Counted from the first letter of the stretch, positions 42,020 through 62,102 are shown. The stretch is 64,000 nucleotides of DNA from Trypanosoma brucei (GCA_000002445.1 CH464491.1:4448001-4512000), one strand, 5' to 3'. Program-made: numbers and translations. Notes: generated by a model not told the origin, from the sequence alone.

Positions 42020-42812
42020 TGACAATTGCGGCAGGACGATGAGCAGAAGTAACAACGCGACTGGAGCTCTCAATATCACGGGAAGTACGTCCATGGCGAC
42101 ACGACACACAGCTCCTCCCGTCGGAAGGGAATGTTCCCCGCCACTCGGTGCGAGTGAGGCATTGCGGTCGCTCAAGTGAAGCATATTCATCGCAGTGTCT
42201 TTGATAGTCTACGTGTAAAAGTGGTTGTCACACTGGAACAAATGAAAGGGAGGGGTTGGGCAAGAGTTGTTAGGTGAAACTGGGAACCACGTAACGCCAA
42301 GAACGTGATGCCCATATCGAGGGGAAAAAATATAAACGGTTGCACGCAACAAGCCATATTAAGATTTAAGGACGCCAACACACGCATCGTTCCATCAGAG
42401 CCAAACACACCAGTAACGTAGGCGCGAAACTGCGCTTGTTGTGTCAGAGGCGGCGGTCACAATGCACAAGACCACCCCACAACAGTACAGAACTCCCAAG
42501 GTATGCGCCGCGCGCGGTGGAGTGGACCATCGATAGGTAAAACAACAATGTACCATTAAGAGGTCAACGGTTCCTCCAATCACGGCGGATGTGCCGCCCC
42601 TTTGCCACTAATTGATTGGAGGAACGGGGGCGTATTTTTCGCGACACACGACCACTGCAAAGCGGCTGGAGACTTGACACAATCCGAAGGGCGCGTCAGC
42701 TGCGTCGCAACTGTGTGCACGCTTCTATACCCCTGGCATCGGCGACAAAGTATCCGCAGCCACAATAGCCACCAAAGAACCGCCTCTCCTTCCAGCTTAG
42801 ACATAGTAGGTG
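42020..42812. repeat. Left arm of an inverted duplication. It is the reverse complement of 43116-43908, i.e. the adenylate cyclase 5' flank plus its first ~170 nt of coding sequence.
   Basis: Track ORFs 42395-42583(-) and 43345-43533(+) are identical, as are 42187-42408(-) and 43520-43741(+). ORF 41603-42190(-) begins MNMLHLSDRNASLAPSGGEH, identical to the cyclase N-terminus. Nucleotide reverse-complement identity was checked by eye across the arm ends. Confidence 0.85.
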
Positions 42813-43115
42813 TCCGCCACACACACACACACAATCTCTTTTGTGTTTGCTCTTTTCGTGCCCCGCTCCGCGCGGGTAAACCACTTTCAGCGGCCGGAGA
42901 ACTCCCGTGCGAAAATGTTTTCTCACCTGACTCGGTGTGTGCTGACACTCCGAGTCACTTCGCAGGTAAGGGAGTCATACGCCCTCTGGAACGGGTGAAC
43001 CAGTTCCAGTAGGATAGCACTATCCTTGATCAATGGCACCGCGTAAATGCTGCATCACTACCGAAAGCAAGTAAGAAGGCATATGACCCCGTTTCGCGCC
43101 GGTTCGTCCACCCGA

Positions 43116-43908
43116 CACCTACTATGTCTAAGCTGGAAGGAGAGGCGGTTCTTTGGTGGCTATTGTGGCTGCGGATACTTTGTCGCCGATGCCAGGGGTA
43201 TAGAAGCGTGCACACAGTTGCGACGCAGCTGACGCGCCCTTCGGATTGTGTCAAGTCTCCAGCCGCTTTGCAGTGGTCGTGTGTCGCGAAAAATACGCCC
43301 CCGTTCCTCCAATCAATTAGTGGCAAAGGGGCGGCACATCCGCCGTGATTGGAGGAACCGTTGACCTCTTAATGGTACATTGTTGTTTTACCTATCGATG
43401 GTCCACTCCACCGCGCGCGGCGCATACCTTGGGAGTTCTGTACTGTTGTGGGGTGGTCTTGTGCATTGTGACCGCCGCCTCTGACACAACAAGCGCAGTT
43501 TCGCGCCTACGTTACTGGTGTGTTTGGCTCTGATGGAACGATGCGTGTGTTGGCGTCCTTAAATCTTAATATGGCTTGTTGCGTGCAACCGTTTATATTT
43601 TTTCCCCTCGATATGGGCATCACGTTCTTGGCGTTACGTGGTTCCCAGTTTCACCTAACAACTCTTGCCCAACCCCTCCCTTTCATTTGTTCCAGTGTGA
43701 CAACCACTTTTACACGTAGACTATCAAAGACACTGCGATGAATATGCTTCACTTGAGCGACCGCAATGCCTCACTCGCACCGAGTGGCGGGGAACATTCC
43801 CTTCCGACGGGAGGAGCTGTGTGTCGTGTCGCCATGGACGTACTTCCCGTGATATTGAGAGCTCCAGTCGCGTTGTTACTTCTGCTCATCGTCCTGCCGC
43901 AATTGTCA
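43116..43908. repeat. Right arm of the inverted duplication. The spacer between arms is 42813-43115, ~303 bp.
   Basis: As for the left arm. Arm boundaries: gacatagtaggtg (42800-42812) and cacctactatgtc (43116-43128). Confidence 0.85.
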
Positions 43909-46900
43909 GTGGGCGCCGAGGCTAATGCGACAGTCAAGGTTCTCTCCGCCGCGTGGAACTCGTACATGCCGCAGGAGTATGTGACCGCGATCAATGCTGG
44001 CTTCAGTGCCTCACTAGAGTCACGACAATGGACTGTGGCTGGAAGCGTGAAAGTTGAGGTAGTTTATCCAGAGCGGTACGAAACACTACCCGAAGATTTC
44101 ATTAAAGAGCAGTTGGAATTGGAAACGGACCAGAATAAGATTGTTATAGTGTATGGACCCCTCGGTGACAAAAGCGTAATATACTCGATCCCGTATCTGG
44201 TGAATCACAGCGTAGTGGCCTTAGGGTTGATGACCGGCTCCGGGGAGGTGCGGCGGTGGAATCCGTACCTTTACTTTCTGCGTGCCGACCCCGCTGCTGA
44301 AACATTGGCTCTCATTCGGTATGCTCTATGCCAGTTGCGCGTGCTGCGCTTGGGTTTTATGTACCTTCAGGGTGTTCATTATGGCGACGAGGAGTATGCA
44401 TTGACAGTGAACGTGATGTCTCAGATGGGTTATGAGCTGCATGGTGTGTTCACCGTGATGAGTCCAGACGGTGAGCCTGCTCCTGATGATGAGTTCAAAG
44501 AGGCGTTCGAGCGTTTCGCCGCCGCCCTTCCTCAGGCCATCATTGTCTTTGGTGCGCCAGAAAAGGATACTGCGAAGTTCTTGATGATGATGGTAGCGGA
44601 GGAGCGCGTTGCTCGGTCTTATATTCTTGGTCCATCATCCGTCCAGGTGTCACTTGCAGAAATGTGGCGACTCGCTCTGGAAGCTGCAGGGGCCTCATTC
44701 GCGCCCGGGCAGCTACTTTTCACAGGCACCAATCCGCTTGCGAAGGACAGCCAGTACATAGCAATCAAGCGTTTTCAAGGAGTTATGAGTGAATACCTGA
44801 AAGCTCACGTCGGCGAAACCAACATCACTGAAACAGATTATTTCCTGACCCACGATCCTGAGGGAGAGTTGATGGTGTATGGGTGGATTGCTGGGGAGGT
44901 ATTGACCCAGGCACTTAGTAGTCTTGAATGGCTCAAGGACCGCGCTACGTTTGTCAGGTCGCTATACAGCCAACGGCGCTACGTCATCAATGACATTGTG
45001 ATCGGTGATTATGGCGGTACGTGTGAGGGGGAGGCGGCCAAGCATGGCGCCACCTGTGAGTGTAACCAAGGCAGTAAGGCGGTGTATGTGAAAGAGGTGT
45101 TGGAGGATGGCCGGACGACGACGATGGCGAGTGGATTCACGGTGGTGAAAGCTTCGCAGTGCTATGCTGAATCTTCGGAGCTTCACGGGCCACTGAATGG
45201 ACTCGCCGTTTTCATGGAAGACGACGACACCGCGTCGAAGGCAGCTGCGCTGTGGCACAAGGGGGCCTCCCATCTTGTCGGCAAGGGTGATTTGGGACAC
45301 TCGGACAGGTTCTTTCTGCACGCATTTAATACTACCATAGCTGAGGCAGCGAACGATCTTCGGCATGAACAAGGTGAAAGAATCGTAACCGCTGTGTTTG
45401 GCCCCGTGACCGAGGCGATGTTGGACACGCCGAATATAACCTTTATCGATCCCCTGGAACTCAAACCACGGCTGAATAAGTTCAGAAGGAATGTGATTCA
45501 TCTCTCGCCCACCCTGGAACAACAACTTTACGTTCTTTCATCGTACCTCGCAGGCGACGGGGTCGGCACTGTTGATGCCGTGATCTGCAGCAACGAAGCG
45601 GATGGGATTGCAGATTTTCTGCGGAGGTCACTAACTGAGTTCGGTGTCTCGCTACGTTCCGCTGTCATACGTGAGGATGGGGAAGGTGTTGGTAAATACC
45701 TTCCGATGAGTGGGATCGTGTTTGTCATTGGTCTTTCCGTTCCAGATGTGAGGGAAATCGCGAGGAAACTTGAGGAACGTAACGATTTGCGTGTGATTGT
45801 TCTCTTCGCGGAGTTTTCGTTACTGTATGATCTGTTTACTTCGACCCTCAACAACACCGCAGGCGCCGCGCGTCTTGTGTTTGCCACCAGCTTGCCACAT
45901 TGGGGTGATACTGAAACCTCATCGAAGACTACTCAACTGTTCCATGATGTCGAAAAAGACTCACGATTGTGGACACCCCTATCACTTCTGGCATTCGCAA
46001 CCGGTCGATTGATGCGGGCAATACTTCTTCGTGTAGAAGAAATGAGTCCAGAAACGTTGGTAAATTTCTTCTATGCCGATTCTTCCATCATCTCTGATGA
46101 CATGCGGTACGGTGTCTTCGACGACACAAAGTGCGACGGCGCAGAGAACATTTCGGAGGGTGATTGTGCCTCGAACTATGGCGCAACGCAGATATCCGTG
46201 TGGTCTATGGCCCGTGCTCTCAACGCCTCCATTCTTCCACTTACAAATCCCATGACACCGTCAATGAGCTTCAGAGACCCTAGCGAAGGAAAACTCTCCG
46301 GGGCACCGCTGGTGGGCGTCATCATCGGTGCTACCTTTGCTTTGTTTCTTGTGGTGGCTCTGGGCGTGGTTCCATACTTTGTCCTGCGCAACACCCGTGA
46401 TAACAACAGCGCGCCAAAGGAACCCACAGAGCCTGTGACAATTGTTTTCACAGATATTGAAAGCAGCACGGCACAGTGGGCTGCCCACCCCGATGTCATG
46501 GCTGATGCTGTCGCCGCACACCACAAGTTGATCCGCGCGCTGATCTCCCAGTACGAGTGTTACGAGGTGAAGACCGTTGGGGACTCGTTCATGATCGCGA
46601 GCCGAAGTGCGTTTATGGCGGTGCAACTTGTGCGGGATCTGCAGAGGGCGTTCCTTCGCCACAACTGGGGCGCGTCCGTGTTTGACGAGTATTATTGCAG
46701 ACTTGAGCAGGACCGTGCGTTAGAAAGTGAGGGATACGTGCCGCCAACCGCACGCCTGGACCCCGACGTGTACCGAAAGTTGTGGAATGGCCTCCGAGTG
46801 CGAGTTGGTGTGCACACCGGATTGTGTGACATTCGCCACGATGAGGTGACAAAGGGTTACGACTACTATGGTCATACGTCGAACATGGCTGCCCGCACAG

Positions 46901-47499
46901 AGAGCGCTGCGAATGGTGGACAGATATTGCTGACACGTGCAACATACCTTTCGCTAAGCACAGCGGAGCGTGAGCAACTTGACGTCACTGCGCTGGGCGC
47001 CGTCCCACTGCGTGGCGTTCCCGATCCGGTGGAAATGTACCAAGTTGATGCTGTGGTCGGTCGGTCCTTCGCTGCACTGCGCCTCGACAGGGAGGTCGAT
47101 CTGGTCGCAGATAGTGGGGTAACAAACCTATCCACCAGCGACTGCGCGTCCTTATGTGAGTTGGGTCAGTCAGCACAGACGATAGTGGCAGTCATGCGCG
47201 CACTTTTCGGCACTTTTACAGCATCACAGCGGGAAAAGTTGTTAGTGCCCTTCTGCGAGCGTTGGCGTGTGACGCTACCACCCAAAACGAAGTCCGTGTG
47301 GGATGATAACTACTGTCAGGAGGTTGTGCGGCGTATAGCAGCAAAAGTGGGACACGTCGTTGACTTCACGGCTTACAACATCGCTGAGCCCCCCCTCACA
47401 ACGTCAAGCAGCTCGTCCGTCATATTCATTTCCGACGCCGCCGTGGGTTTGTGCGCAGTGGGAGAACGAAATGTCTCAACCCCAAAGGAGGAAAACTGA
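43738..47499 (+). CDS. GRESAG4: Receptor-type adenylate cyclase (trypanosome ESAG4/GRESAG4 family), 1253 aa.
   Basis: Signal peptide (LLLLLIVLPQLSVGA) and a large extracellular domain. Single TM segment LVGVIIGATFALFLVVALGVVPYFVL. Class III cyclase catalytic core VTIVFTDIESSTAQWA...YEVKTVGDSFMIAS...YDYYGHTSNMAARTES. Confidence 0.9.
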   Translation: MNMLHLSDRNASLAPSGGEHSLPTGGAVCRVAMDVLPVILRAPVALLLLLIVLPQLSVGAEANATVKVLSAAWNSYMPQEYVTAINAGFSASLESRQWTVAGSVKVEVVYPERYETLPEDFIKEQLELETDQNKIVIVYGPLGDKSVIYSIPYLVNHSVVALGLMTGSGEVRRWNPYLYFLRADPAAETLALIRYALCQLRVLRLGFMYLQGVHYGDEEYALTVNVMSQMGYELHGVFTVMSPDGEPAPDDEFKEAFERFAAALPQAIIVFGAPEKDTAKFLMMMVAEERVARSYILGPSSVQVSLAEMWRLALEAAGASFAPGQLLFTGTNPLAKDSQYIAIKRFQGVMSEYLKAHVGETNITETDYFLTHDPEGELMVYGWIAGEVLTQALSSLEWLKDRATFVRSLYSQRRYVINDIVIGDYGGTCEGEAAKHGATCECNQGSKAVYVKEVLEDGRTTTMASGFTVVKASQCYAESSELHGPLNGLAVFMEDDDTASKAAALWHKGASHLVGKGDLGHSDRFFLHAFNTTIAEAANDLRHEQGERIVTAVFGPVTEAMLDTPNITFIDPLELKPRLNKFRRNVIHLSPTLEQQLYVLSSYLAGDGVGTVDAVICSNEADGIADFLRRSLTEFGVSLRSAVIREDGEGVGKYLPMSGIVFVIGLSVPDVREIARKLEERNDLRVIVLFAEFSLLYDLFTSTLNNTAGAARLVFATSLPHWGDTETSSKTTQLFHDVEKDSRLWTPLSLLAFATGRLMRAILLRVEEMSPETLVNFFYADSSIISDDMRYGVFDDTKCDGAENISEGDCASNYGATQISVWSMARALNASILPLTNPMTPSMSFRDPSEGKLSGAPLVGVIIGATFALFLVVALGVVPYFVLRNTRDNNSAPKEPTEPVTIVFTDIESSTAQWAAHPDVMADAVAAHHKLIRALISQYECYEVKTVGDSFMIASRSAFMAVQLVRDLQRAFLRHNWGASVFDEYYCRLEQDRALESEGYVPPTARLDPDVYRKLWNGLRVRVGVHTGLCDIRHDEVTKGYDYYGHTSNMAARTESAANGGQILLTRATYLSLSTAEREQLDVTALGAVPLRGVPDPVEMYQVDAVVGRSFAALRLDREVDLVADSGVTNLSTSDCASLCELGQSAQTIVAVMRALFGTFTASQREKLLVPFCERWRVTLPPKTKSVWDDNYCQEVVRRIAAKVGHVVDFTAYNIAEPPLTTSSSSSVIFISDAAVGLCAVGERNVSTPKEEN

Positions 47500-50400
47500 G
47501 GGTCGTAGGCATGCGCCATTTTTTAATGTGACGGTAAATGTTAGCGAAAGTTCTTTTAAATTTGACTTCTTTTTTTTTTTCATTCCATGGCTTATAACCG
47601 CATGTAGACATACAGTCGTGGGCACTTTCCTTCTGGCTTCGTCACTTGAGCGCGTATATCTTACAGCTAAAATGCTTTCGTTGTTACTTTTGTTATCGTC
47701 TGGGGATATAGCATCAACACCTCTATGGAGGTTACCGTATAAGCATATTGATATGGTGACTAACCACACGCACTATATGCCCCTTTTTGATTTTTCCCGT
47801 TGGCTTTTATGAGTTTTGTTCCGGGATGAACAAGCACTACCAAAATAAATGGAAATAGTGTTTTGCCTTTAATTCTTCCCATTGGGTGTTATTATTATTA
47901 TTTTTTTCGCATATATTAAATAAAACAGTCTTTGATCGTAGACAGTTCTCAGAAACAGTGAACTTACATTATAACCACCTTTCGTATGTTGTGTTTTGTC
48001 GTAATGTTGAAAAGTCTTCCTCCGTCAAACATGAATGTCTTTCTTACTCCTCCAACGCTAATAGTGCCTACTCAATTTTGAATTGAGGCGCCTGCTCCCC
48101 CACAAGGGTCCTTGGCATGACGAAAAAAAAAAAAGCGTACGCATTGCAGTGTGTTCAACTCGTGAATTTACGAATATTCGATGTTACGCCTCTATTCTTC
48201 TCATGTTGGTTTTCTCATTCCAAGGTGGCCTGAGCATTTGTTTCCGGCCATGGCACCACGTTGCGCCCATATAAACCGCCCTCCAGAGACCCTGTTTTGC
48301 CAGCGCGCTGTGGCTCTGCGTAATGCGGCTTGACGGCTCGCTTACTTAACTGAATCCCTGCATCATTTCTCCATCCCCTTGCTTGTGTTTCCCAACCCCC
48401 TGTTGTTTTGCTGCACACTTTCCTCCCTATTTCTACATTCCACAAGGGTCCCAAGTGTGTGTATGTGTGTACGTGTATGTTGTTGTTGTTTTGGCGACAG
48501 CAATCCCAGTGCTTACGCACGCACAACTATGCTAAGAACACCCGTGGCGGGAACTCTGTCACAACAGCCACACACAAATAAAAAAAAACTCGCAACCTAG
48601 TTGAGATTATCACAGAGGCAATGTTGCCGCTTTGCCGTGGAGCATTCAGGGAGGTTCGGGGTACAGAATGTGCGGCCCTTTAACATTAATAGTAGCGAGG
48701 CGGTAGACGGAGTAGCTGAGTTGCGTGAGCCCTAAGCGCCACGGGCCCCAGCGCAGAATATACAACAGAGAGCGAAGCTGATGTATTTTTCCCTCTTGGT
48801 GATGCACAATCCGTATTCTCGTGTCGTGAACTCTTGTGACATGCGAGCGGGCGATGGTGCTTCGTGTCCTGAACCATCTCTAAAGGGCTCGGCTGGATGC
48901 TTTTGGATGTGTTTTCATCCCTCAATGCTCCGCGACAAATATCTAAACCTATTCCCCACGCTGTGTGTGTGTGGGGGGGGGGGGGAGATCAACTTGCTCT
49001 CGATTGATGTGTGAAACGGACCACTCTCGGAATGTGCACAAGCAGAGCGACGAGTCGCTGTATGAAAAAAATAAAATAAAATAACCCAAACCCGTGAAAC
49101 TGTCAACCGGATCCGCACCAGTTGAGTTTGGGAAAAGTTGGAGTTGGGCGCAACCTGCCGAGTGGCACATCGCTTTACGGGATATCGCTGCTGCATGGAG
49201 GAAAATATGATTAGTGCAACCGTCGCAACACCCGCGGCGTCAGCAACCCCGCATGGTTCGGTACGGCCACCGCCACCCGACCTTAACTGAGCCGTCGCCT
49301 TGTTTGTTTTTTTTTTTTTAGCGGGAACGCGTAAAGAGTTTGAACCCGGTGGCCTCTGAATCTGCGGGGAATTATTTCTCCCATCGATGGCGTCATAGCG
49401 AGAGCGCCAACAATAATGAGGAACTTAACAGAACGGACGTGGTGCGCACAGTGCGGAAGCCCTAATGGGAATAATCGCCGTCACGTTGGGAAGGTGACTG
49501 ACGCTGCTAAATATGAATGTGCTCAGCAGGCATTAGAGAAAATATCAGCGTGAAGTGCAGGCGTTCGCCGCCGTGTGGTATCGAATTCAAGATGTTAAGC
49601 TGAGAAAGTTGGATGACACTTCGGGCGCCGTCACCATTTTATGGGAAGAAGAGAGAGAGAGAGATCGGTGGCAATGCGTCAGAACCACAATATTACCGAG
49701 CAGTAAGGGGCGAAATGCAATGCATAAAATACATTGAACATATTAACTGATAGAACTAAAGGACATATAAAAGTGCGGAGGTAAAAAGGCATTGCTCAAC
49801 AGCATCACGTCCATTTCGCCGATGCTGAGACGCCGTCCCACCCTCAGTCTTTACATATTTCGTCACACGTGTAGCGGACTGACCCCAGCGCGTATCCAAG
49901 TGAATGTGCCGATGCGGGCGCGCGCTGTACAATAAATGCCGCGCTGACAGGAACGAATCAGAAGGTGCTGCTGGCCTTAAAGCTTCAGCACATCGCAAAT
50001 GTATAAACAATAACGCTGCGGGAGCAATGAAATGGAAGTGTAATGGAATATGCATTACGTTTTACACCTTTTCGGAAGCATATGTGCGCTGGTGGCGCAT
50101 CCTTGCTCACATTCGTCCCGCATCAAATGGGATCACTCTGAAAATAAAGAGAGATACGACCACGTTTCCGCATGGGCGTATCGGTATGGCTGTTCGACTC
50201 AACGCATCTCCGCCGAAAGCATACAAAAAAAAATAAAACGATGGAGACGCCGTATTTTCGAGTATGAACGAGTCCACGGTGGCAGCGGCGGGACCTGAAC
50301 CCACAGTGGTGGTGGTGGGGGGGGGGTGTGAGGACGTTGCTCCGTAATCATTTTCTAATGTGAAATGTAATTCGGTCACCCCTCATATGCAAAGGTGTCG

Positions 50401-51055
50401 GGTACATGTAAGGTAGCCAAACGCAATTGTGCTGCATGAATGGTGAAGAGTATTTAAAACGGTAGCTGAAGGCATTGATTTTTAAAAAAACAAAAAAAAC
50501 AGAGACCTCATCGGTGCTTTGTCTGGAGTATTGCCATTTGGAATGAAAACGGGCACATAAAAACCCCCTGTGGGGAACTTTAAATCCTAGAAAAGGGCAA
50601 TCAGAAGGTGAATGTAATGAAAGTCCACTGAGAGCGGGAGGCACTCGGGACGCAAAATGCCACCTCATGTTACCATGCCTGAGGTGTCGCTTTACCTCGA
50701 AACAGAAAGACAAGGAAACTATGACCAGGAAAAGGTGGAACCGCATCATACAAGAACCCTTCGCAAATAAGGCAGTGCTGACGGTGTGTCGGCATCAGGA
50801 GCACAGACCGAATCAAGAGCGTTACCGCAACCCAAACATAAGTGGAGCGATGGCATCAAAACAGCGTCTTGCCACTTGCAAATTGCTTGGGAGTGGAAAG
50901 GCAGACGCACACCACTGAGGGTCGAGGTTACTCAAACCCCGCACACGTGGCAAAATACACAAATGAAAAAATCATTGTCTGGTGAATGAAGTCGCTTCAG
51001 CACGTCTGGCGCACGTTCCGCGGCACTCAAAAGTTTCGTATTTGAAGCCTCAAAA

Positions 51056-51172
51056 GGTTAGGGTTAGGGAGATGTGTAAAATCAAGGCTGCAGAGGGCCC
51101 TGATCGGTTATGAAGTCGTGCCCGAAGAACCCTAACACCAACCCTAATCATAATGATCGTCTCTGTAACCCT
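51056..51172. repeat. Interstitial telomere-like hexamers in head-to-head orientation. ggttagggttaggg is followed ~60 bp later by degenerate ccctaa units (ccctaacaccaaccctaatca ... aaccctcag).
   Basis: Seen directly at 51056-51070 and 51128-51172. Confidence 0.7.
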
Positions 51173-52104
51173 CAGTGCTATAGAAAGATGCGTCCGCGCA
51201 CACGGCAGCACAAACACATGTCAATTGAGGTCTACAACGAAAACTCGCTGCTCAACTCAAGAAAACAAACTTTAAAAACAAAGAGCTATGAAGCAATATG
51301 CGGCGCTCAACCCTCGCGCATCCGCCCTTACAATATGCCACCAAAACGTGAGTTCAAGGAAATGGCCTACCAACAAAAGAGAAGCAACAGACAGCACCCA
51401 AGTGAGCGGTAAACACTAAGAAAAAAGGAAACATTTTCAACCCAGCAGACGTGGCGTCAGCCCGACCGACACGCATGTCGCCTCCTCATCAAGCATGCAA
51501 AAATACACCGCCCCCGTCACCACCATCACTGCCACAATAACTCCAGTCACAAAAATAAAAAAACCTACTAAGAATAACATCACGCTCCTTAACAGAAAAG
51601 ACGATACAACGCCTCAACGGCACCTTCAACAATAGGGAACAGCATATACATTCTTCCATAGGTCCACTGAAACTCACGCCTACTAAGCATTATTGATGGC
51701 AACCCACTTAAACCACCATCTTCCGCAAGTTCCCATATATGTTTCGGCACCTGCACAGAAAAGCAACACAAGAGCACATGTCTTTCTCGCAACGCGTAAT
51801 ATTGCATGTATAATTGCACAGTATGCAACCAAAAATATACATATATGTTTTGCATGTATGTGTTTCTATATGCCGTTTGACATGGGAGATGAGGGATGCT
51901 ATACATAGTTCTGTTATTTTCTAACACGTATGTGTGTTAGAGTGTCTGTGTTAATATACTTTTTAATACATGCTCTACATAATATACAGTAGTAATAACA
52001 CAGAGAATACGTATGGAATGCGTATCTCTCTATATATATTTATGTATATATGCTATGTGTATATCAACCTCGCATATTTTCTCCCTGTTGACCATGGCTC
52101 CCAC

Positions 52105-52276
52105 AACGTGTCGCGATGGATGACTTGGCTTCCTATTTCGTTGAAGAACGCAGCAAAGTGCGATAAGTGGTATCAATTGCAGAATCATTTCATTGCCCAA
52201 TCTTTGAACGCAAACGGCGCATGGGAGAAGCTCTCTCGAGCCATCCCCGTGCATGCCACATTTCTCAGTGTCGAAT
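52105..52276 (+). rRNA. 5.8S rRNA.
   Basis: aacgtgtcgcgatggatgacttggcttcctatttcgttgaagaacgcagcaaagtgcgataagtggtatcaattgcagaatcatttcattgcccaatctttgaacgcaaacggcgcatgggagaag... This is a near-exact trypanosome 5.8S as recalled. Confidence 0.85.
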
Positions 52277-52870
52277 ATAAAAACATAACACACACCTATT
52301 TTGTGTTGTTCAACGCACGCACAAAATCCCGCCACCTCTTCTCCTCGTATGGTTCATATTCATGTTTGTGAGTGTGCACATATACGATATCTTTCAACTT
52401 TTTCTCCTCGCAAAATGGAGTATGTCGCGCATATACGTGTGTGTAGTGAGTGATATGGAAGAGAAATGGGAAAGGCATATATATATATATACGTATATAC
52501 ATAATATATATGTGTGTGGATTTGTGTGTTGAGCACATATAAGGAAAAAGGTCGTGTGTATATGCAGAGAGTCCGTGGCGGTTTAGACGTATGTATATAT
52601 ATCTATAATATATGCATATGTGTGTGTTCCGCTGTGGAGATTTTATATCATACGGAGAGTGTTCATATATATGTTTGTAGGCATGTATTTTGGCGCCCCG
52701 TATAGAGATTAAAAAAGAAGAGAAAAAGTATGCAAAAGAGGCGGCGGATAGTGTGTATGTGTGTATCACAGCAAGGAACTATATTTTGCAGCTTGAGTAT
52801 ATGCATATATGTACATTATGTGCTTGTGCTTCTTTCGTGTACGCTTCACTTTTTTATATTGCATTTTTCA
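52277..52870 (+). other. ITS2-like spacer between 5.8S and LSU. It is AT-rich with (TA)n and (TG)n microsatellites.
   Basis: Position between 5.8S and the LSU 5' end. tatatatatatata and tgtgtgtg tracts at 52470-52660. Confidence 0.6.
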
Positions 52871-54375
52871 GACCTGAGTGTGGCAGGACCACCCGCTAAA
52901 CTTAAGCATATTACTCAGCGGAGGAAAAGAAAACAACCGTGATTCTCTCAGTCAGCGGCGAGCGAAGAGGGATTCAACTCGTTGCCGAATCGGGTCTTAC
53001 ATGACCTCGAACTGTGGCACCATTTTTGTGGCCGTTCTTATAGGGCTGGTGCAGGCGTGGCGGAATTCAATTGCAAAGCAAACCCGTTGCTGAACACATT
53101 TACAACCCTTCATGTGAGTATTGAGCCAAAGAAGGTGTCAGCCCATTACATTCCTTAGCCACGGAGCCCACGCGCCTCCTCATGTTCGGTCCAAGAGAGT
53201 AGCACTGTTTGGGAATGCAGTGTCAAGCCGGCAGGTATTTGTCTGCCAAGGTTAAATATAGAGTAGGAAGACCGATAGCGAACAAGTAGCGTGAGCGAAA
53301 GTTTGAAAAGTACTTTGGAAAGAGAGTGACATAGAACCTGAAATCGTGACAACGACAATGGAAGTACCTCCATTTCTTTTTTTTACGGCCAGACCCAACC
53401 TCGCCGCGCAATTTCCTTCCGGGGCTCAACATCCGGTGGGTTTTCACTGTGCGGGTTTCTCTTTTGAGGTCATGGGGTGCGTGAGTGGGCGGAATAAAGG
53501 GTCGGTGTGTTGTGTGTGGGTTTTTTCTCTCACTCTCTTCCTCCTTCCCTGTCCGTGCGTCTCGACGCTGGCGATGGAAATGGGGTGCCCCCACCCGTCT
53601 TGAAACACGGACCAAGGAGTCAAACAGACGCGCAAGGGAGGAGTATGTATGTGAGAACTCTTTTCTCGTACTGAAAGGGAGGTGTGATTTTGCACCCGTG
53701 GCGTGCGCAATTTCTCTTTTTTGTGTTTTTGCCCAACGCCGGCCGGCCCCCCGTGGGCTGCGCGCGAGTGTGCCTGTTTGGACCCGAAAGGTGGTGAACT
53801 ATGCCTGAACAAGGTGAAGCCCGGGGAAACCCCGGTGGAGGCCTGTAGCGATGCTGACGTGCAAATCGCTCGTACGATTTGGGTATCGGAGCGAAAGACT
53901 CATCGAACCACCTAGTAGCTGGTTCACGTCGAAGTTTCCCTCAGGATAGCTGGTGCTTGTCTTTAAGAAGTATTGTGCGGTAAAGCAAATGATTAGAGGC
54001 ATTGGTGTTCTTGTAATATCGACCTATTCTCAAACTTTAAATGTGCAAACAACCCAGCCTTAGTTATCTTAACAAGGCTTTTGGGTACATAAGAATTGAG
54101 GCACCAAGTGGGCCTTCTTCGGTAAGCGGAGCAGGCGATGCGGAATGAACCGCTTAGGGATATGTGGCGTCAAAACTTGTGGGCTCATTCTCGATACGTG
54201 AAAAGGGTGTTAGCGGATAGGGACACTTGGACGGTGGCCATGGAAGTCGGCATCCGCTAATGAGTTTGTAACAACTCGCCAACCGAATTCACCGGCCCGG
54301 AAAATGGATGACGCTTAAGCCCCATGTGCGTGATTGCCAATTATTCCTTTGGTGAGGGCGGCTATATTTCTTTGT
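52871..54375 (+). rRNA. LSU (28S alpha) rRNA, 5' ~1.5 kb only. It is truncated or interrupted at the retroelement junction.
   Basis: Universally conserved LSU blocks are present. 5' end: gacc..acccgctaaacttaagcatat..agcggaggaaaagaaa. Then ggaaagagagt.a....acctgaaatcgtg, cccgtcttgaaacacggaccaaggagtc, gacccgaaaggtggtgaactatgcctg, gaaccacctagtagctggttc...gtttccctcaggatagctgg, ccatggaagtcggcatccgctaatgagtttgtaacaactcgccaaccgaat..accggcccggaaaatggatgacgcttaagc. Nothing rRNA-like follows the element. Confidence 0.85.
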
Positions 54376-54452
54376 CCCTGGCGATACCGGCCACCTCAAC
54401 GTGGTGCCAGGGTCCAGTACCCCGTATCATCGGGGGAAGCCAAGAGCCAGCA
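54376..54452 (+). promoter_or_regulatory. Pr77-like 5' signature of trypanosomatid retroposons. It is reported for L1Tc/ingi/RIME as an internal promoter-like element.
   Basis: The sequence begins CCCTGGCG and matches the remembered 77-79 nt signature. Confidence 0.6.
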
Positions 54453-54599
54453 GCTTTCCTTTCATGGGGAACACTGCTGTGCTCCGGCTACGGCATCATA
54501 CAGCACAGGGATCAGCAGCGTCTTGCTGGGACACCGTCTTTCATTTGTCGGTCCCTGGTCACGTGCCAGTGTGCCATCAGCAGTATCATCCGCACTAAG

Positions 54600-57458
54600 A
54601 TGCTGCTGTCCGGTGATGTGGAAGAGAATCCCGGCCCGTCGTTGCGCGGGATGCAGTGGAACTGCGCCGGGCTATCTCAAGGAAAGAGATTAGCACTCCA
54701 CAAAACCCTTGTTGATGAGCGGATCGCCTTTTGTCTGTTGAGCGAGACAAGGATGACGCCTGGAGTGGCGGCTTGCTTTAGTGTTGCTGGCTACCAACAT
54801 CACGGAATAGCTCGTAACTGCAAAGGAGGTGGTGTATCAATACTAGTGAGGGAGGACCTACCAGTCGAGACCGGTATGGCCGTTATTGGTCGCATTGAAA
54901 AAGTGCATGCAACAATTCACCTTGCACGTGGAACGGCGCTGACTGTCACGTCGGCATACATCCAACCAAAACACACCTTCACGGCAACTGACCTAGATAC
55001 GCTTCTGACGACTGACGGTGCCCAGCTCATCGGTGCAGAGGCTAACGCACACGCGTTGGCATGGGATCGCGCGAGCCCACCAAATACCAAGGGTGAAACC
55101 CTCACACAGTGGTGCATTGACAACCAGTTTCTGGTCTGCAACACTGGTGAGTGCACCAGGTACGCGCGCCACCACGGGGAGTCCACCCCTGATGTGACAC
55201 TGTCAAGGAATTGCACAGTGTACACGTGGACATCGCTGTATTCTCCCGATAGCGATCACCATCACATATTTTTCGACGTTATCGTTGGAGACGACACAGA
55301 TGCACTGAGTTGCCCGCGGCTTCGAAAGCCCATGTACGCATGGCTAAAAGCTAACTGGAGGAATTTCCGTCTCAAGGTTGACGAGCTCTGCAGGAAAATT
55401 GGTAGAGAAAAGAACATCAACACCCTGAAACAGAAATTGAGCTCCGCCATCCGCATTGCGACGAAGGTCTCCGTCCCCCGTGGCTGCAGAGCAACGCCAC
55501 CACATTGGACACCTGAGCTCGCGAAACTCGATGAAGAGATCGCTGGATGCGGACCCTCCCACCGAAGGGAAAAGTTGGTAGCCACGCGTAAGCAGATCCT
55601 GGACCGTACAACAAAGAAGAGATGGAGCACGCTATGCTCCAGACTTGCGGTGTCAGACCGCTGCAGTTGGCACATTGTCAAGAAGGTATATGCGCCACGA
55701 CCACTAACCACACCGGCTGTACTTGTTGATAACGCGGCCATCACGGACTACCGTCAAGCTGAGAGGTTCAGTAAACTGTACTCGTCCCGCGCAAGAAGGC
55801 ACCCCGACTCACACCCACCGGCACCCATAAAGATGACAAAGAGTGAGTTCAGTCCCATCACTATGGCTGAACTACGGAGATCGATCAAACTGCTACCGAG
55901 TGGATCCGCAGCCGGACCTGATTGCTTATACAACGAGGCACTGCAACATCTCGGTAGAACAGCGCTGAATGTTGTTCTGAGGCTATTCAATGAGAGCCTA
56001 CGAACGGGAGTCGTGCCGCCTGCATGGAAGACTGGTGTTATCATCCCCATCCTGAAGGCCGGAAAAAAGGCGGAGGACCTCGATTCTTACAGGCCTGTGA
56101 CGCTCACGAGCTGTCTCTGCAAAGTCATGGAGCGCATAATTGCCGCGAGGCTTAGAGACACTGTTGAGTCCCAGCTGACGCCGCAGCAATCAGGCTTTCG
56201 CCCCGGATGCTCAACGCTCGAACAACTCCTGCACGTCCGCGCTGCCCTCTGCCGTCCCACGCACCAATATCGTACGGGTGCTGTATTCGTCGACTACGAG
56301 AAGGCATTCGATACAGTAGACCACGACAAAATTGCGAGGGAAATGCACAGAATGAAGGTATCACCCCACATTGTGAAGTGGTGCGTATCATTTCTGAGTA
56401 ACCGAACTGGCAGAGTGAGATTCAAGGAGAAGCTCTCCAGAAGCAGAACATTTGAGCGAGGAGTGTCACAAGGAACTGTCCTTGGCCCAATCATGTTCAT
56501 TATTGTCATGAACTCGTTGAGCCAATGCCTTGCAGAAGTGCCGTTACTGCAGCATGGATTCTTTGCAGACGACCTGACGCTATTTTCGAGGCACACAGAG
56601 AGGGATGTCATCAACCACACACTACAGTGCGGCCTAAACGTGGTGTTACAGTGGTCACAAGAGTACTTCATGTTTGTCAACGTAGCGAAAACAAAGTGCA
56701 CACTCTTCGGGTGTATAGAGCGCCACCCCCTTACATTACAACTGGACGGCGAAAGAATAGGAGCTGACAGGACACCGAAGCTTCTAGGAGTAACATTCCA
56801 GTGTCTGCAAGGGATGGCAACACATGCGGCAGAGACAAGACGCAAGATGGACTTCAGACTACTGCAGATAGCAGCCATCTCAGCTTCTACATGGGGGCCA
56901 AGACGACAAGTGCTGAGAGCTTTTTATCTAGCACTCGTACAGGCACACACCATGTATGGCATCGAGGTATGGTACTGGGACGCTTCGAAACGAAGTCGCG
57001 ATCTCCTTTCAGCAGCACAACACAAAGCCAGTTGCATCATAGCTGGCATACCCCATGGGACGCGCAAAGAGGACTCTCTGCTGGAAGAAAACCTCCTGCC
57101 ACTCAAGACGGCCACTCTTGTGCGCAGCATGAAATTCATGCTGATGTGTGAGTCACGAGGCGGATGTTTGCGGCACAGTGCTGAGGAAGTATACCACAGC
57201 AAACACCCAGTCAGAGCCCTACATTCCCGCATCATGCGGTCCTACCCCCACCTCCACATTGAGCCACGCGAGCACCCACTAGAGACATCGACGCTCCGCC
57301 ACAGCTGCCGACCGTTATTTCACACGCAGATAAAGCCTGTGTGCGCTGATGACCCTGACGATGTCAAAAGAGAGGCTTCCGAAAAGTGGATTGCACGGCA
57401 TTTTGCACGGAGGGGGATAGGAGCCACCGCGGCGAGAGCACTACGAATTGTAGACTGA
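54600..57458 (+). CDS. ingi ORF segment 1: 2A-like peptide, AP endonuclease, reverse transcriptase. The track ORF starts at 54324 inside the rRNA flank; the first element-internal Met is at 54600.
   Basis: MLLSGDVEENPGP at 54600-54638. RT motif FADDLTLF. It ends at TGA 57456-57458, and the RNase H domain resumes in the +1 frame. Confidence 0.75.
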   Translation: MLLSGDVEENPGPSLRGMQWNCAGLSQGKRLALHKTLVDERIAFCLLSETRMTPGVAACFSVAGYQHHGIARNCKGGGVSILVREDLPVETGMAVIGRIEKVHATIHLARGTALTVTSAYIQPKHTFTATDLDTLLTTDGAQLIGAEANAHALAWDRASPPNTKGETLTQWCIDNQFLVCNTGECTRYARHHGESTPDVTLSRNCTVYTWTSLYSPDSDHHHIFFDVIVGDDTDALSCPRLRKPMYAWLKANWRNFRLKVDELCRKIGREKNINTLKQKLSSAIRIATKVSVPRGCRATPPHWTPELAKLDEEIAGCGPSHRREKLVATRKQILDRTTKKRWSTLCSRLAVSDRCSWHIVKKVYAPRPLTTPAVLVDNAAITDYRQAERFSKLYSSRARRHPDSHPPAPIKMTKSEFSPITMAELRRSIKLLPSGSAAGPDCLYNEALQHLGRTALNVVLRLFNESLRTGVVPPAWKTGVIIPILKAGKKAEDLDSYRPVTLTSCLCKVMERIIAARLRDTVESQLTPQQSGFRPGCSTLEQLLHVRAALCRPTHQYRTGAVFVDYEKAFDTVDHDKIAREMHRMKVSPHIVKWCVSFLSNRTGRVRFKEKLSRSRTFERGVSQGTVLGPIMFIIVMNSLSQCLAEVPLLQHGFFADDLTLFSRHTERDVINHTLQCGLNVVLQWSQEYFMFVNVAKTKCTLFGCIERHPLTLQLDGERIGADRTPKLLGVTFQCLQGMATHAAETRRKMDFRLLQIAAISASTWGPRRQVLRAFYLALVQAHTMYGIEVWYWDASKRSRDLLSAAQHKASCIIAGIPHGTRKEDSLLEENLLPLKTATLVRSMKFMLMCESRGGCLRHSAEEVYHSKHPVRALHSRIMRSYPHLHIEPREHPLETSTLRHSCRPLFHTQIKPVCADDPDDVKREASEKWIARHFARRGIGATAARALRIVD
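54615..54638 (+). other. 2A-like ribosomal-skipping motif DVEENPGP (D-x-E-x-NPGP) at the N-terminus of the retroelement ORF.
   Basis: gatgtggaagagaatcccggcccg. The motif is identical in form to the 2A-like sequence reported for T. brucei ingi/TSR1 (SSIIRTKML.SGDVEENPGP). Confidence 0.8.
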
Positions 57459-59421
57459 TGGATCCGTGTCCCTCGGTGAGAAGTCCGGGGCAGCTGCCCT
57501 GCTCTATAGAAACAACACGCTGATTTGTGCACCCAAAACCGAAGCAGGGGAACTCTCATGCAGTTACAGAGCGGAATGCGTAGCATTAGAGATAGGACTG
57601 CAACGGCTGCTGAAATGGCTTCCGGCATACAGAAGCACACCGAGCAGGTTGTCCATCTTCTCTGACTCGCTGTCAATGTTAACAGCCCTGCAGGCAGGTC
57701 CACTAGCCGTAACGGACCCAATTCTGAGACGACTATGGAGGCTTCTGCTTCAAGTTCAGAGAAGGAAGGTGCGTATCCGACTGCAATTTGTGTTTGGCCA
57801 TTGTGGCGTGAAACGGAATGAGGTTTGTGATGAAATGGCCAAAAAGGCTGCAGATTTACCACAGTTGCGAGACACATGGATCCCCAACATCATTGCTTAT
57901 GCGAAGCGAGTGCTTAGGTCGGAAGAAGTCCATGAGAACACTCATAGGTTTGGTGTCACGGGCAACCACTTTCCAACAAAACATAAAGAAGAACTAACGA
58001 GGGAAGAAGAAACGGCACTGGCACGCTTTCGGGTTGGGTCTTCAAGACACTATGGATGGATGTTGCGAAAGATCAACCCGAGTGTGCCTCCACAGTGCCG
58101 ATGGTGTAACCCGCAACATGCAGCGATAGGACCAACAATACAAACAGCCCCAACTGTTGCGACACGCATTCTTCATAAAACCTCCGAACCGACCAAATGT
58201 ACGGAATGTGATGCCACATACCAATGCCACTCAAGTGCTGTAACGCATATGGTAAACAAACACGGCTTTGTGCGAGCTGATGCACTCCGGAGGATCAAAT
58301 ACGGCGATGCAACACCTGCAGTGGACATCCCCCCGGAGCCCCCTCCAGTGGTGGCGATCGTTCCTTTACCATCGAGCACACGAGTCCCGATGAGACCGCA
58401 GGTGCTTCATTGTACCCTCTGTGCCTCCAAATTCGCAGTGCCAGGCCGACTATTACACCACCTTAGAACAATACATGGCATAGGCAGCGGTAGTTGCCGC
58501 GTGAAAAGGGGGCGAGAGAACGAGGACTCATAGCAAGGAGATGGTAGAGCCCCAGCAGCGCCAGCCTCTCAGGATACACGGAAGCTGCCGTTTCAATGTG
58601 ACCTGTGCGAGGCGAGCTTCGGTACACGTTCTTCCCTGTCACTACACAAGAAATTCAAACATAAGAGCATAGTGACGGAGGACGGTACCGTGGTGTTGGT
58701 GCAATTCCCTCGTAAGCGTGCCCGTGAGGGAAACGTTGACGTCCCGGGGAAGGGCGAGGTGCAGTGCGGTGTGTGCCAAAAAGTGCTCAGTTGCAGGGAC
58801 TCCCTCATCCGACACTGCAAGGCTTTTCACAAAGGTGAGGGAGTCGAGCTTAAATGCAGCAAAAGCACAAAATTTTGTGCCACTGATTCCCCGCATACAA
58901 ACACATCCATGTTGGTTTGCCAGACATGCGGAAGGCAGTGTGCTAGCAAAACTGGCCTCACCCTATATCAAAAGAAGATGCACGGTATGAAGGTAGAGCA
59001 CGCTGTTACCAGCCAACGCGGCGACTGCGAAGAAACGTCGCTGCACCTGATGAGCTGTCTTGGTTTGAAGGAGTTACGTGTCAGGTTTGCGGTAGAAGGT
59101 GTGTGTGTGCAGGATGTATGTTTTTCTAAAAGGCTGGCGCAGTTTCTTATTGCAGTTGAACGGGGCCGGCTGCAGGTGCTTAGCACAATGGTGTCGATGT
59201 TCTCAGCTTCGGCGCAGGTCGTGCTTTTGTCTTCTTGCGTTGTGTCCGCACATGTTTCTCCTCCAGGTGTCCCTGTGATCTGCTGTGAGCACAGTGCTTT
59301 ATTCAGCTTGGCCTTAATTTCCGTTATTAGGCTTTTGGCGTTAGTGTCCATAGGTTTGCTTTTTAGTGTCGTCACTAGGTCTGCCGTTTCCTCTGCAGTG
59401 CTGTTGACTACCAACTTTTGA
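57457..59421 (+). pseudogene. ingi ORF segment 2 (RNase H and C2H2 zinc-finger region). It is in a different frame from segment 1 and is interrupted by an in-frame TAG at 58531-58533.
   Basis: TDGSVSLGEKSGAAALLYRN (RNase H start) lies immediately after a stop in its own frame. Track ORFs 57466-58533 and 58672-59421 share a frame and are separated by a single TAG. Confidence 0.7.
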
Positions 59422-61925: not shown

Positions 61926-61933
61926 CACTCTCC

Positions 61934-62015
<82 letters not shown>

Positions 62016-62102
62016 TAATTATTTTTATTAATTAATTATTATTATTAATTATTATTATTATTATTATTATTATATTATTATTATTATTATTATTATTTAT
62101 TA
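61926..62102. repeat. (ATT)n trinucleotide array degenerating into ttaattaatt, abutting gap 2.
   Basis: Seen directly. The track translates it as poly-L. Confidence 0.95.

What the first reader, a model, noticed from the sequence alone, without database searches (positions are those of the whole stretch)
49280..54375. Orphan rDNA unit: intact 5.8S and 5' LSU but no recognisable 18S, with a possible decayed 18S relic upstream
5.8S and ~1.5 kb of LSU-alpha are near-canonical. The ~2.8 kb where ITS1 and 18S should lie (49.3-52.1 kb) carries no conserved SSU blocks (no GTGCCAGCAGCCGCGGTAAT, no GATCATTA 3' end). Only faint echoes remain. One is aaaatacaccgcccccgtcaccaccatcactg at ~51.49 kb, versus SSU GTACACACCGCCCGTCGCTACTACCGATTG. 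Another is ggcacctgcacagaaaag, versus GTGAACCTGCAGAAGGA. Either the 18S was deleted or replaced, or it decayed far faster than the adjacent 5.8S/LSU. Differential decay within one unit would be unusual and suggests a rearrangement breakpoint between ITS1 and 5.8S.
Basis: partly seen in the sequence, partly recalled or inferred. Interest (0 to 1): 0.5.

Follow-up and report, generated by a model that had tools for sequence, protein, structure and literature searches.

The report
Truncated ribosomal DNA copy, no 18S
This is a broken-off copy of a Trypanosoma brucei ribosomal RNA gene unit (most of ITS1, 5.8S, ITS2 and the first ~1.5 kb of the large-subunit gene), cut at its far end by an ingi retrotransposon. 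The DNA upstream is unrelated spacer, not a decayed 18S gene, so the finding is an ordinary rDNA pseudogene at a chromosome core/subtelomere boundary.

Summary
Window 51,790-54,375 holds ITS1 (minus its first ~25-35 nt), an intact 5.8S, ITS2 and nt 1-~1,508 of the 1,863-nt LSU-alpha. No 18S is present.

- **Breakpoint.** It lies at the 5' edge of ITS1, about 30 nt after the 18S end, not between ITS1 and 5.8S.
- **No relic.** The upstream 2.8 kb is not a decayed 18S. Rfam's SSU model finds nothing even at E<=10. nhmmer finds nothing. T. brucei's own 18S, rebuilt from published tiling oligos, gives only chance-level alignments (40 of 300 shuffles score as high).
- **3' end.** It is a precise insertion of a full-length ingi (Pr77 hallmark, 2A peptide, APE/RT/RNase H).

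The whole block (ESAG4-like cyclase, 4.3-kb spacer, rDNA fragment) is a segmental duplication. T. b. gambiense chr10 carries a paralog with the identical spacer/ITS1 junction but no ingi at that LSU site.

The mature-rRNA parts are nearly identical to functional rDNA (5.8S 100%, LSU body ~99.7%). The spacer differs 4.6% between paralogs. This points to gene conversion from functional rDNA and explains the apparent "differential decay".

rRNA genes at the chr9-11 subtelomere boundaries are already annotated and mentioned in the literature. Interest is low.

The parts
43738..47499 (+). ESAG4-like receptor adenylate cyclase. It is the upstream gene of the duplicated block that carries the rDNA fragment (context).
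   Evidence: Pfam PF25493, PF25495 and PF00211. 98% identical to the T. b. gambiense DAL972 chr11 'ESAG protein' and 91% to a TREU927 ESAG4.
47500..51789 (.). Non-coding spacer between the cyclase gene and the rDNA fragment.
   Evidence: No Rfam SSU hit at E<=10. No nhmmer hit with kinetoplastid or T. brucei 18S. Smith-Waterman score against T. brucei 18S is 16, reached by 40 of 300 shuffles. Conserved at 98.7% with DAL972 chr11 over 48,074-51,672 and at 95.4% with the DAL972 chr10 paralog over 48,074-51,793. No Pfam domains in its ORFs.
51790..52104 (+). ITS1 lacking its first ~25-35 nt. The 5' breakpoint of rDNA homology is at ~51,790-51,803.
   Evidence: BLAST homology to canonical DAL972 chr3 rDNA starts at 51,803. 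The four-way alignment shows a sharp onset of identity, and the chr10 paralog has the same junction.
52105..52276 (+). Intact 5.8S rRNA sequence.
   Evidence: RF00002 full length, 106.6 bits. Exact match to the 172-nt T. brucei 5.8S rebuilt from Muller et al. 2018 Table S4. 169 of 169 identical to the paralog.
52277..52868 (+). ITS2, in a variant form.
   Evidence: About 96% identical to canonical ITS2 copies. Canonical copies themselves differ by up to 4.2%.
52869..54375 (+). 5' ~1,508 nt of LSU-alpha (28S-alpha, 1,863 nt in full). It is truncated; the last ~356 nt of LSU-alpha, srRNA1, LSU-beta and the small rRNAs are absent from the window.
   Evidence: RF02543 model positions 24-1445 of 3401. 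99.1% identical to published 28S-alpha tile positions 1-1,495. There are 3 substitutions and 1 indel in the first 1,330 nt, and 9 substitutions in the last 164 nt. No LSU continuation elsewhere in the window.
54376..59421 (+). ingi non-LTR retrotransposon inserted into the LSU. Its 5' end is exact. Its 3' end was not determined, because no poly(A) tail or target-site duplication was found.
   Evidence: The Pr77 hallmark starts at 54,376 (compare the L1Tc Pr77 sequence printed in PMC1874656). A DVEENPGP 2A-like motif is present. Pfam finds Exo_endo_phos_2, RVT_1 and RNase_H in three consecutive ORFs. The DAL972 chr10 paralog and canonical LSU read straight through this point. No target-site duplication or LSU remainder lies downstream.

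Best explanation
The feature is a truncated rDNA pseudogene (an 'orphon') of the Trypanosoma brucei group. It sits at the right-hand core/subtelomere boundary of chromosome 11.

**Structure.** A piece of an rDNA transcription unit, starting ~30 nt inside ITS1, is joined to unrelated sequence 4.3 kb downstream of an ESAG4-like adenylate-cyclase gene. No 18S was ever carried into this junction, or it was removed cleanly. The upstream DNA is spacer.

**History.** The block (cyclase, spacer, rDNA fragment) was later copied between chromosome ends; chr10 and chr11 are shown here, and chr9 is inferred. In the chr11 copy a full-length ingi retrotransposon inserted after LSU-alpha nt ~1,508. Everything 3' of that point is missing from the window.

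**Why it looks intact.** The mature-rRNA parts are still almost identical to functional rRNA. The most likely reason is that they are repeatedly overwritten by gene conversion from the functional rDNA arrays (inferred). The non-homologous spacer, and the last 164 nt next to the ingi, escape this and show ordinary pseudogene drift of about 5%.

**Function.** The fragment most likely contributes nothing to ribosome supply (inferred).
For: - **Anatomy.** define ITS1 (truncated), 5.8S, ITS2 and LSU 1-~1,508.
- **No 18S.** Searches are all negative. This includes T. brucei's own 18S rebuilt from PMC6784898 Table S4.
- **Genomic position.** The window is syntenic with the end of DAL972 chr11 at 98% identity. 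That contig stops ~120 nt before the junction.
- **Paralog.** DAL972 chr10 carries cyclase, spacer and rDNA with the identical spacer/ITS1 junction. Its LSU reads through the ingi site, so the ingi insertion is later and specific to this copy.
- **ingi identity.** Pr77, a 2A-like motif and APE, RT and RNase H domains.
- **Concerted evolution.** Window versus paralog: spacer 95.4%, 5.8S 100%, LSU body 99.5%, last 166 nt 94.6%. Against canonical rDNA there are 38 window-only differences, 13 paralog-only differences and only 2 shared derived ones. Against the published 28S-alpha there are 3 substitutions in 1,330 nt, then 9 in 164 nt.
Against: - Gene conversion is inferred from identity patterns only. 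Purifying selection on the 5.8S and LSU parts would give the same pattern.
- The window's ITS2 is ~4% from the canonical copies sampled. This is compatible with a variant donor unit, since canonical units differ by up to 4.2%, but it is not proof.
- The origin of the 4.3-kb spacer is unknown. No T. brucei 5' ETS or promoter reference was available, so 'the spacer is old ETS/IGS with a clean 18S deletion' could not be tested directly.
- The missing LSU remainder after the ingi could be a mis-join inside the repetitive ingi in the assembly. The ingi's 3' end, poly(A) tail and target-site duplication were not found.
- The extent of the chr10 paralog's LSU is hidden by an assembly gap.
Confidence: 0.78

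Rival explanations
1. Decayed 18S relic. A complete rDNA unit once sat here. ITS1 to LSU is kept fresh by gene conversion, while the 18S and ETS part fell out of conversion and decayed beyond easy recognition.
For: - The rDNA part does appear to be refreshed by conversion, so differential ageing is possible in principle.
- With a non-brucei trypanosomatid 18S (L001), one 69-nt patch (49,988-50,056, 68% identity) and a 13/14 match (49,868-49,881) fell on the collinear diagonal. Smith-Waterman score was 20, reached by 3 of 400 shuffles.
Against: - With T. brucei's own 18S the same patch drops to score 16, reached by 40 of 300 shuffles. The top BLAST hits are off-diagonal or on the wrong strand, and nhmmer finds nothing. 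A real relic should match its own species' 18S at least as well.
- The Rfam SSU model finds nothing even in a 501-nt search space.
- Chaining of weak hits is within the null distribution (best chain 25; 8 of 54 null runs score as high), and the best chain lies off the collinear diagonal.
- Global alignment on the collinear footprint scores worse than control segments.
- The spacer differs only 4.6% between paralogs. A relic would have to be many times older than the duplication, yet its neighbour stayed convertible all that time.
Confidence: 0.05
2. Functional 18S-less module. The 5.8S and LSU fragment is kept by selection. It might serve as a cohesin-bound boundary or termination element at the core/subtelomere junction, or be transcribed to yield 5.8S.
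For: - 5.8S is 100% identical to the functional sequence and the LSU body ~99.7%, against ~5% drift around them.
- Paralogous modules sit at the chr9, chr10 and chr11 boundaries and contact each other in Micro-C (PMC11666725).
- SCC1 is reported enriched across rRNA genes, and the chr11 3' subtelomere locus is the illustrated example (PMC6784898).
- The fragment lies where a + strand transcription unit meets a - strand VSG array.
Against: - A truncated LSU-alpha cannot make a ribosome.
- The ingi insertion and the 5.5% decay of the adjacent 164 nt are pseudogene behaviour.
- ChIP and Micro-C signals at sequence 98-99% identical to canonical rDNA may come from multi-mapping reads.
- No promoter was identified.
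- Conversion explains the identity pattern without any need for function.
Confidence: 0.1
3. Retro-copy. An ingi sitting in a functional LSU was co-transcribed with pre-rRNA, and the chimeric RNA was reverse-transcribed here with 5' truncation in ITS1 (5' transduction).
For: The rDNA fragment abuts the exact 5' end of a full-length ingi, and its own 5' end is at an arbitrary point in ITS1.
Against: - The chr10 paralog has the same spacer/ITS1 junction, but its LSU continues uninterrupted past the ingi site. The rDNA fragment therefore existed before the ingi arrived.
- No poly(A) tail or target-site duplication flanks the composite.
Confidence: 0.01
4. Assembly artefact. The spacer/ITS1 or LSU/ingi joins are chimeric joins through repeats.
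For: - rDNA and ingi are multicopy.
- The DAL972 chr11 contig breaks ~120 nt before the junction.
- The window has an N gap at 62,105-62,203.
- The LSU remainder is missing after the ingi.
Against: - The spacer/ITS1 junction is reproduced in an independent assembly and chromosome (DAL972 chr10).
- The LSU/ingi join is at nucleotide 1 of the element, as a real insertion would be, not inside a repeat.
- The fragment carries private substitutions not seen in canonical copies.
Confidence: 0.05

Closest known systems
Canonical T. brucei rDNA transcription unit (18S, ITS1, 5.8S, ITS2, LSU-alpha, srRNA1, LSU-beta, small rRNAs; arrays on chr1, 2, 3, 6, 7 next to centromeric repeats)
   Same: ITS1, 5.8S, ITS2 and LSU-alpha nt 1-~1,508 are collinear with canonical units and 98-100% identical to them.
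   Different: - It has no 18S.
- No 5' ETS or promoter was identified.
- There is nothing beyond LSU-alpha nt ~1,508.
- It is a single fragment, not an array.
- It lies at a core/subtelomere boundary behind an ESAG4-like gene.
rDNA 'orphons' or dispersed rDNA pseudogene fragments of eukaryotes (own knowledge: Childs et al. 1981 coined 'orphons' for dispersed copies of tandem gene families)
   Same: It is a partial unit detached from the arrays, interrupted by a mobile element, and part of a segmental duplication.
   Different: The mature-rRNA parts remain almost identical to functional genes, which suggests continuing gene conversion rather than free decay.
RIME ('ribosomal inserted mobile element') and ingi insertions in T. 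brucei rRNA genes (RIME name per PMC4035085; original reports by Hasan et al. 1982/1984 recalled from own knowledge)
   Same: A member of the ingi/RIME family interrupts a large-subunit rRNA gene copy.
   Different: - Here it is a ~5-kb ingi with APE, RT and RNase H ORFs, not a 0.5-kb RIME.
- The host is an 18S-less orphan copy.
- I could not compare the insertion site with the historical clone.
rDNA-specific non-LTR retrotransposons R1/R2 (own knowledge)
   Same: A non-LTR element sits in the LSU gene. The L1Tc/ingi-clade Pr77 5' end has been shown in related elements to encode an HDV-like self-cleaving ribozyme that frees the element from co-transcripts (PMC4035085). This parallels R2.
   Different: - ingi is dispersed in the genome and is not rDNA-site-specific.
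- It uses an APE-type endonuclease (Pfam).
- The chr10 paralog and canonical units have an empty site.
Annotated 'rRNA genes' at the chr9, chr10 and chr11 subtelomere boundaries of T. brucei Lister 427
   Same: Very probably the same loci. 'Two rDNA genes' on the chr11 subtelomere matches 5.8S plus an LSU-alpha fragment (PMC11666725; PMC6784898).
   Different: In the passages I read, those papers treat them as rRNA genes or rDNA loci. Their 18S-less, ingi-truncated, duplicated nature is not described there.

Membership tests
5.8S rRNA (Rfam RF00002) | Full-length match to the covariance model above the gathering score | tested here: met
   Model positions 1-154 of 154, 106.6 bits against a threshold of 42. 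Exact identity to the published T. brucei 5.8S.
Eukaryotic LSU rRNA gene (Rfam RF02543), complete | Coverage of the whole model, including the peptidyl-transferase domains | tested here: not met
   Only model positions 24-1445 of 3401 are present. Canonical contig L014 covers 1-3222. No remainder is found in the window.
Eukaryotic SSU rRNA (Rfam RF01960), intact or relic | Any significant similarity to the SSU model or to T. brucei 18S upstream of ITS1 | tested here: not met
   No hit at E<=10. No nhmmer hit. Smith-Waterman against T. brucei 18S scores 16, reached by 40 of 300 shuffles.
Functional trypanosomatid rDNA transcription unit | Pol I promoter and 5' ETS upstream | not testable with these tools
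   No T. brucei ETS or promoter reference could be obtained. Indirect evidence: the spacer shows no similarity to the flanks available in the canonical locus L007, and it drifts at 4.6% between paralogs, unlike the rDNA part.
Functional trypanosomatid rDNA transcription unit | Contains 18S, 5.8S, LSU-alpha, srRNA1, LSU-beta and the small rRNAs in order | tested here: not met
   Only 5.8S and a partial LSU-alpha are present.
ingi/L1Tc-clade non-LTR retrotransposon | Pr77 hallmark at the 5' terminus | tested here: met
   Window 54,376-54,454 (ccctggcgataccggccacctcaacgtggtgccagggtcc...) compared by eye with the L1Tc Pr77 sequence printed in PMC1874656, with clear similarity. That paper states 76.6% similarity between L1Tc and ingi/RIME.
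ingi/L1Tc-clade non-LTR retrotransposon | APE endonuclease, reverse transcriptase and RNase H coding capacity | tested here: met
   PF14529, PF00078 and PF00075. The coding region is split into three ORFs (one in-frame stop and one frame change), so the element is probably inactive.
ingi/L1Tc-clade non-LTR retrotransposon | 3' poly(A) tail and flanking target-site duplication | tested here: not met
   No poly(A) run 5-6 kb downstream. No second copy of the LSU target sequence. The 3' end is rearranged, decayed or mis-assembled.
Processed retro-copy (5' transduction by ingi) | rDNA fragment and ingi always linked, with the composite flanked by a target-site duplication | tested here: not met
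   The chr10 paralog has the rDNA fragment without the ingi.

The most novel reading that the evidence does not exclude
The 18S-less rDNA modules behind ESAG4-like genes at the core/subtelomere junctions of chromosomes 9-11 may not be junk. They could be maintained, by selection or unusually frequent conversion, as cohesin-loaded boundary or termination elements, or as nucleolus- or centromere-tethering sequences that help partition the transcribed core from the silent VSG subtelomere. Under this reading their near-perfect 5.8S and LSU identity reflects that role.
Probability: 0.08. Interest if true: 0.6.

Novelty: already known. Interest (0 to 1): 0.2.

Why it matters
Mostly as a clean-up.
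- It shows that an apparent 'differentially decayed' rDNA unit is a simple truncated pseudogene with sharp breakpoints.
- It shows that near-canonical sequence in an orphan fragment need not mean function. Concerted evolution can reach dispersed copies.
- There is a practical consequence. These fragments are 98-100% identical to functional rDNA, so ChIP-seq, Micro-C and RNA-seq signals assigned to the 'rRNA genes' on chr9-11 subtelomeres can be multi-mapping spill-over. The nine private SNPs at 54,212-54,339 and the two junctions give unique handles to check this.
- If the fragments did prove to act as boundary elements, that would bear on how T. brucei separates its core from the VSG subtelomeres.

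Tried and rejected
1. **Transition-biased hypermutation of an 18S.** I suspected G>A/T>C changes by eye. Purine/pyrimidine and transition-tolerant alignments are at null levels. The LSU 'mutations' I thought I saw are simply the native T. brucei sequence.
2. **ingi-mediated 5' transduction.** Refuted by the ingi-free paralog.
3. **Spacer as a decayed ESAG8 or other expression-site gene.** tblastn with ESAG8 from the chr10 locus finds nothing in 47.5-51.8 kb. There are no Pfam domains in the spacer ORFs.
4. **Weak collinear patch at 49,868-50,056 seen with a foreign 18S**. It collapsed with the genuine T. brucei 18S and the Rfam model.
5. **Telomere-like (TTAGGG)2 at 51,058.** 15 of 100 shuffles of the window give such a match.
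6. **Obtaining a T. brucei 18S from databases.** The ORF trick found only other trypanosomatids. TREU927 records are not indexed. A metagenome scan was empty. I finally rebuilt the sequence from the tiling oligos in PMC6784898 Table S4.
7. **Defining the ingi 3' end.** No second ingi copy was available.

Full report
**What is in the window**

Rfam finds only three rRNA matches in the 64 kb:
- a full-length 5.8S at 52,105-52,273;
- two adjacent LSU matches at 52,892-54,382, which together cover only model positions 24-1445 of 3401.

No SSU match appears at the gathering threshold. None appears at E<=10 in 44-64 kb, in 48.9-51.9 kb, or in a 501-nt slice.

The surrounding genes identify a Trypanosoma brucei-group chromosome:
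- a run of minus-strand genes, including an ABC transporter, a GTPase and an AIR9-domain LRR protein;
- a plus-strand ESAG4-like receptor adenylate cyclase at 43,738-47,499;
- after the rDNA piece, an ingi retrotransposon, an AT-rich repeat array with an assembly gap, and a minus-strand VSG C-terminal-domain pseudogene.

Window 32.7-51.67 kb is 98% identical to the last 18 kb of T. b. gambiense DAL972 chromosome 11. That contig stops ~120 nt before the rDNA junction.

**Reference sequences**

An ORF inside the LSU led to several references:
- canonical T. brucei rDNA in DAL972 chr3 (L007);
- canonical T. brucei Logan contigs (L008-L019; L014 spans 5.8S to LSU model position 3222);
- a complete rDNA unit of another trypanosomatid (L001).

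No database route gave a complete T. brucei 18S. I therefore rebuilt it from the 44 tiling anti-18S oligonucleotides in Supplementary Table S4 of Muller et al. 2018 (PMC6784898). This gave 2,188 of the ~2,250 nt. It aligns over its full length to the L001 18S at 83.7%, and at 98% to the clean part of the DAL972 18S 3' end. The same table gave the 5.8S ('M3') and 28S-alpha sequences.

**Boundaries of the rDNA fragment**

- **5' boundary.** Homology to canonical rDNA begins abruptly at ~51,790-51,803. This is 25-35 nt downstream of the 18S 3' end, so ITS1 is nearly complete.
- **5.8S.** The 172-nt sequence is an exact match.
- **LSU-alpha.** It begins at ~52,869 and runs to 54,375, about nt 1,508 of 1,863.
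- **3' boundary.** At 54,376 the sequence switches to nucleotide 1 of an ingi. The evidence is the Pr77 hallmark (compared with the L1Tc Pr77 printed in PMC1874656), a DVEENPGP 2A-like motif, and endonuclease, reverse-transcriptase and RNase H domains in three consecutive ORFs.
- **Downstream.** The rest of the LSU is nowhere in the window. No target-site duplication or poly(A) tail was found. The ingi 3' flank is therefore rearranged, decayed, or possibly mis-assembled.

**Is the upstream DNA a decayed 18S?**

- The best alignment of the 18S 3' end to 51,560-51,795 scores 10.5 against a shuffle mean of 9.9. It is matched by 320 of 1,000 shuffles and by 63 of 128 other segments.
- The ACACCGCCC string at 51,506 is ~100 nt off the collinear position.

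Transition-tolerant and purine/pyrimidine scoring are also at null levels.

One lead needed chasing. With the foreign L001 18S, a 69-nt patch at 49,988-50,056 (68% identity) and a 13/14 match at 49,868-49,881 fell on the collinear diagonal. The Smith-Waterman score was 20, reached by 3 of 400 shuffles. With T. brucei's own 18S the lead disappeared:
- the patch falls to score 16, reached by 40 of 300 shuffles, and the minus strand scores the same;
- the top BLAST hits are off-diagonal or antisense;
- a global alignment on the collinear footprint scores worse than control segments;
- chaining of weak hits gives no collinear signal.

A genuine relic should match its own species' 18S best. I conclude there is no detectable 18S remnant.

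**The fragment is part of a duplicated block**

DAL972 chromosome 10 carries a paralogous arrangement near its right end (L021). It has an ESAG4-like cyclase, then the same spacer, then ITS1, 5.8S, ITS2 and LSU. L021 4,596-10,903 aligns to window 48,074-54,375 at 95.1%. The spacer/ITS1 junction is identical.

In that copy the LSU continues past the window's ingi site with canonical sequence, until an assembly gap. Beyond the gap lie an ESAG8 gene and another ESAG4 on the opposite strand. There is also a weak match (60% identity) to window 60,970-61,426.

Two conclusions follow.
- The junction predates the chr10/chr11 duplication.
- The ingi insertion is later and specific to the chr11 copy. 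This also rules out my idea that the fragment was carried in by ingi 5' transduction.

Protein-cluster records indicate further LSU-ORF copies on TREU927 chr9 and chr10. Cyclases are recorded on the same TREU927 contigs. I could not fetch these loci.

**Why the rDNA part looks 'undecayed'**

Identity between the window and the chr10 paralog:

| Region | Identity |
|---|---|
| Spacer | 95.4% |
| ITS1 | 94.8% |
| 5.8S | 100% |
| ITS2 | 95.3% |
| LSU body | 99.5% |
| Last 166 nt of LSU | 94.6% |

Other comparisons point the same way.
- Against a canonical contig there are 38 window-only differences, 13 paralog-only differences and just 2 shared derived ones. Each copy is closer to functional rDNA than to its paralog.
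- Against the published 28S-alpha, the window has 3 substitutions and 1 indel in the first 1,330 nt, then 9 substitutions in the last 164 nt before the ingi.
- Canonical ITS2 copies themselves differ by up to 4.2%. The window's ITS2 divergence is therefore compatible with a variant donor unit.

The simplest reading is inferred, not shown. Gene conversion from functional rDNA repeatedly overwrites the homologous part. It stops at the heterologies: the spacer on one side and the ingi on the other. The last 164 nt, and the spacer, show the true age of the locus. Purifying selection would give a similar pattern. It is hard to reconcile with a truncated LSU, an inserted retrotransposon and decay next to it.

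**Relation to what is known**

- T. brucei rDNA arrays lie next to centromeric repeats on chr1, 2, 3, 6 and 7, together with ingi and DIRE elements (PMC1868937; PMC3292466).
- The Lister 427 assemblies annotate additional rRNA genes on chr9, 10 and 11. [quoted passage not shown]
- A figure on cohesin SCC1 enrichment uses rRNA genes at the chr11 3' subtelomere (PMC6784898).
- RIME, the short relative of ingi, was named for its discovery in an rRNA gene (PMC4035085).

The locus is thus already annotated and of a familiar kind. The passages I read do not state that it is 18S-less, ingi-truncated and part of an ESAG4-linked duplication.

**Verdict**

The relic and 'differential decay' interpretation is not supported. 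The feature is an ordinary truncated rDNA pseudogene kept partly homogenised with functional rDNA.

Remaining uncertainties:
- the origin of the spacer, because no ETS or promoter reference was available;
- the true ingi 3' flank;
- whether any boundary or chromatin role attaches to these fragments.

Noticed in passing
window 42020-42814 and 43114-43908: A perfect (100%) 795-nt inverted repeat with a 299-nt spacer. The right arm covers the first 171 nt of the ESAG4-like ORF plus 624 nt upstream. The left arm is absent from the syntenic DAL972 chr11 sequence. It is either a very recent inverted duplication at the divergent strand-switch region or an assembly artefact.
   Followed up: partly
window 54212-54339: Nine window-specific substitutions are packed into the last 164 nt of the LSU fragment, immediately upstream of the ingi. 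The preceding 1,330 nt has only 3 substitutions and 1 indel. The chr10 paralog is canonical across this stretch. I read it as an unconverted edge next to the heterology, but it could be damage linked to the insertion.
   Followed up: partly
window 59422-61930: The ingi has no recognisable poly(A) tail or target-site duplication. The sequence after its last ORF turns into AT-rich (33% GC) non-coding DNA. Part of it (60,970-61,426) is 60% identical to the DNA just after the assembly gap in the chr10 paralog.
   Followed up: partly
window 61934-63228 (N run 62105-62203): An array of over 1 kb of (TAT)n and (TATTAG)n repeats, at 8.5% GC, interrupted by a 99-N assembly gap. On the minus strand it reads (ATA)n/(CTAATA)n and lies directly downstream of a VSG pseudogene. 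It may be 70-bp-repeat-like material of the VSG array.
   Followed up: no
window 63498-63890 (-): An ORF with a VSG C-terminal domain (Pfam PF10659, E = 3e-6). It marks the start of the subtelomeric VSG array on the strand opposite to the core transcription unit.
   Followed up: no
L021 (DAL972 chr10) 11986-14016 (-) and 14895-18701 (-): An ESAG8-type RING plus LRR gene and a second ESAG4-like cyclase point toward the rDNA fragment from the other side. The chr10 rDNA orphan therefore sits between two inverted expression-site-like gene arms.
   Followed up: partly
window 51058-51150: (TTAGGG)2 is followed ~60 nt later by a degenerate inverted CCCTAA-like stretch (ccctaacaccaaccctaatc). The exact dimer is within chance for the window (15 of 100 shuffles).
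   Followed up: yes
window 25098-25358: A 36-nt tandem repeat (6.2 copies, 95% matches) lies inside the minus-strand AIR9-domain/LRR protein gene at 24,923-27,937.
   Followed up: no
window 54324-59421: The ingi coding region is split into three ORFs of 1,044, 355 and 249 aa. The first ORF, as listed, starts inside the LSU sequence, so gene callers could produce an artificial LSU-ingi fusion protein.
   Followed up: no
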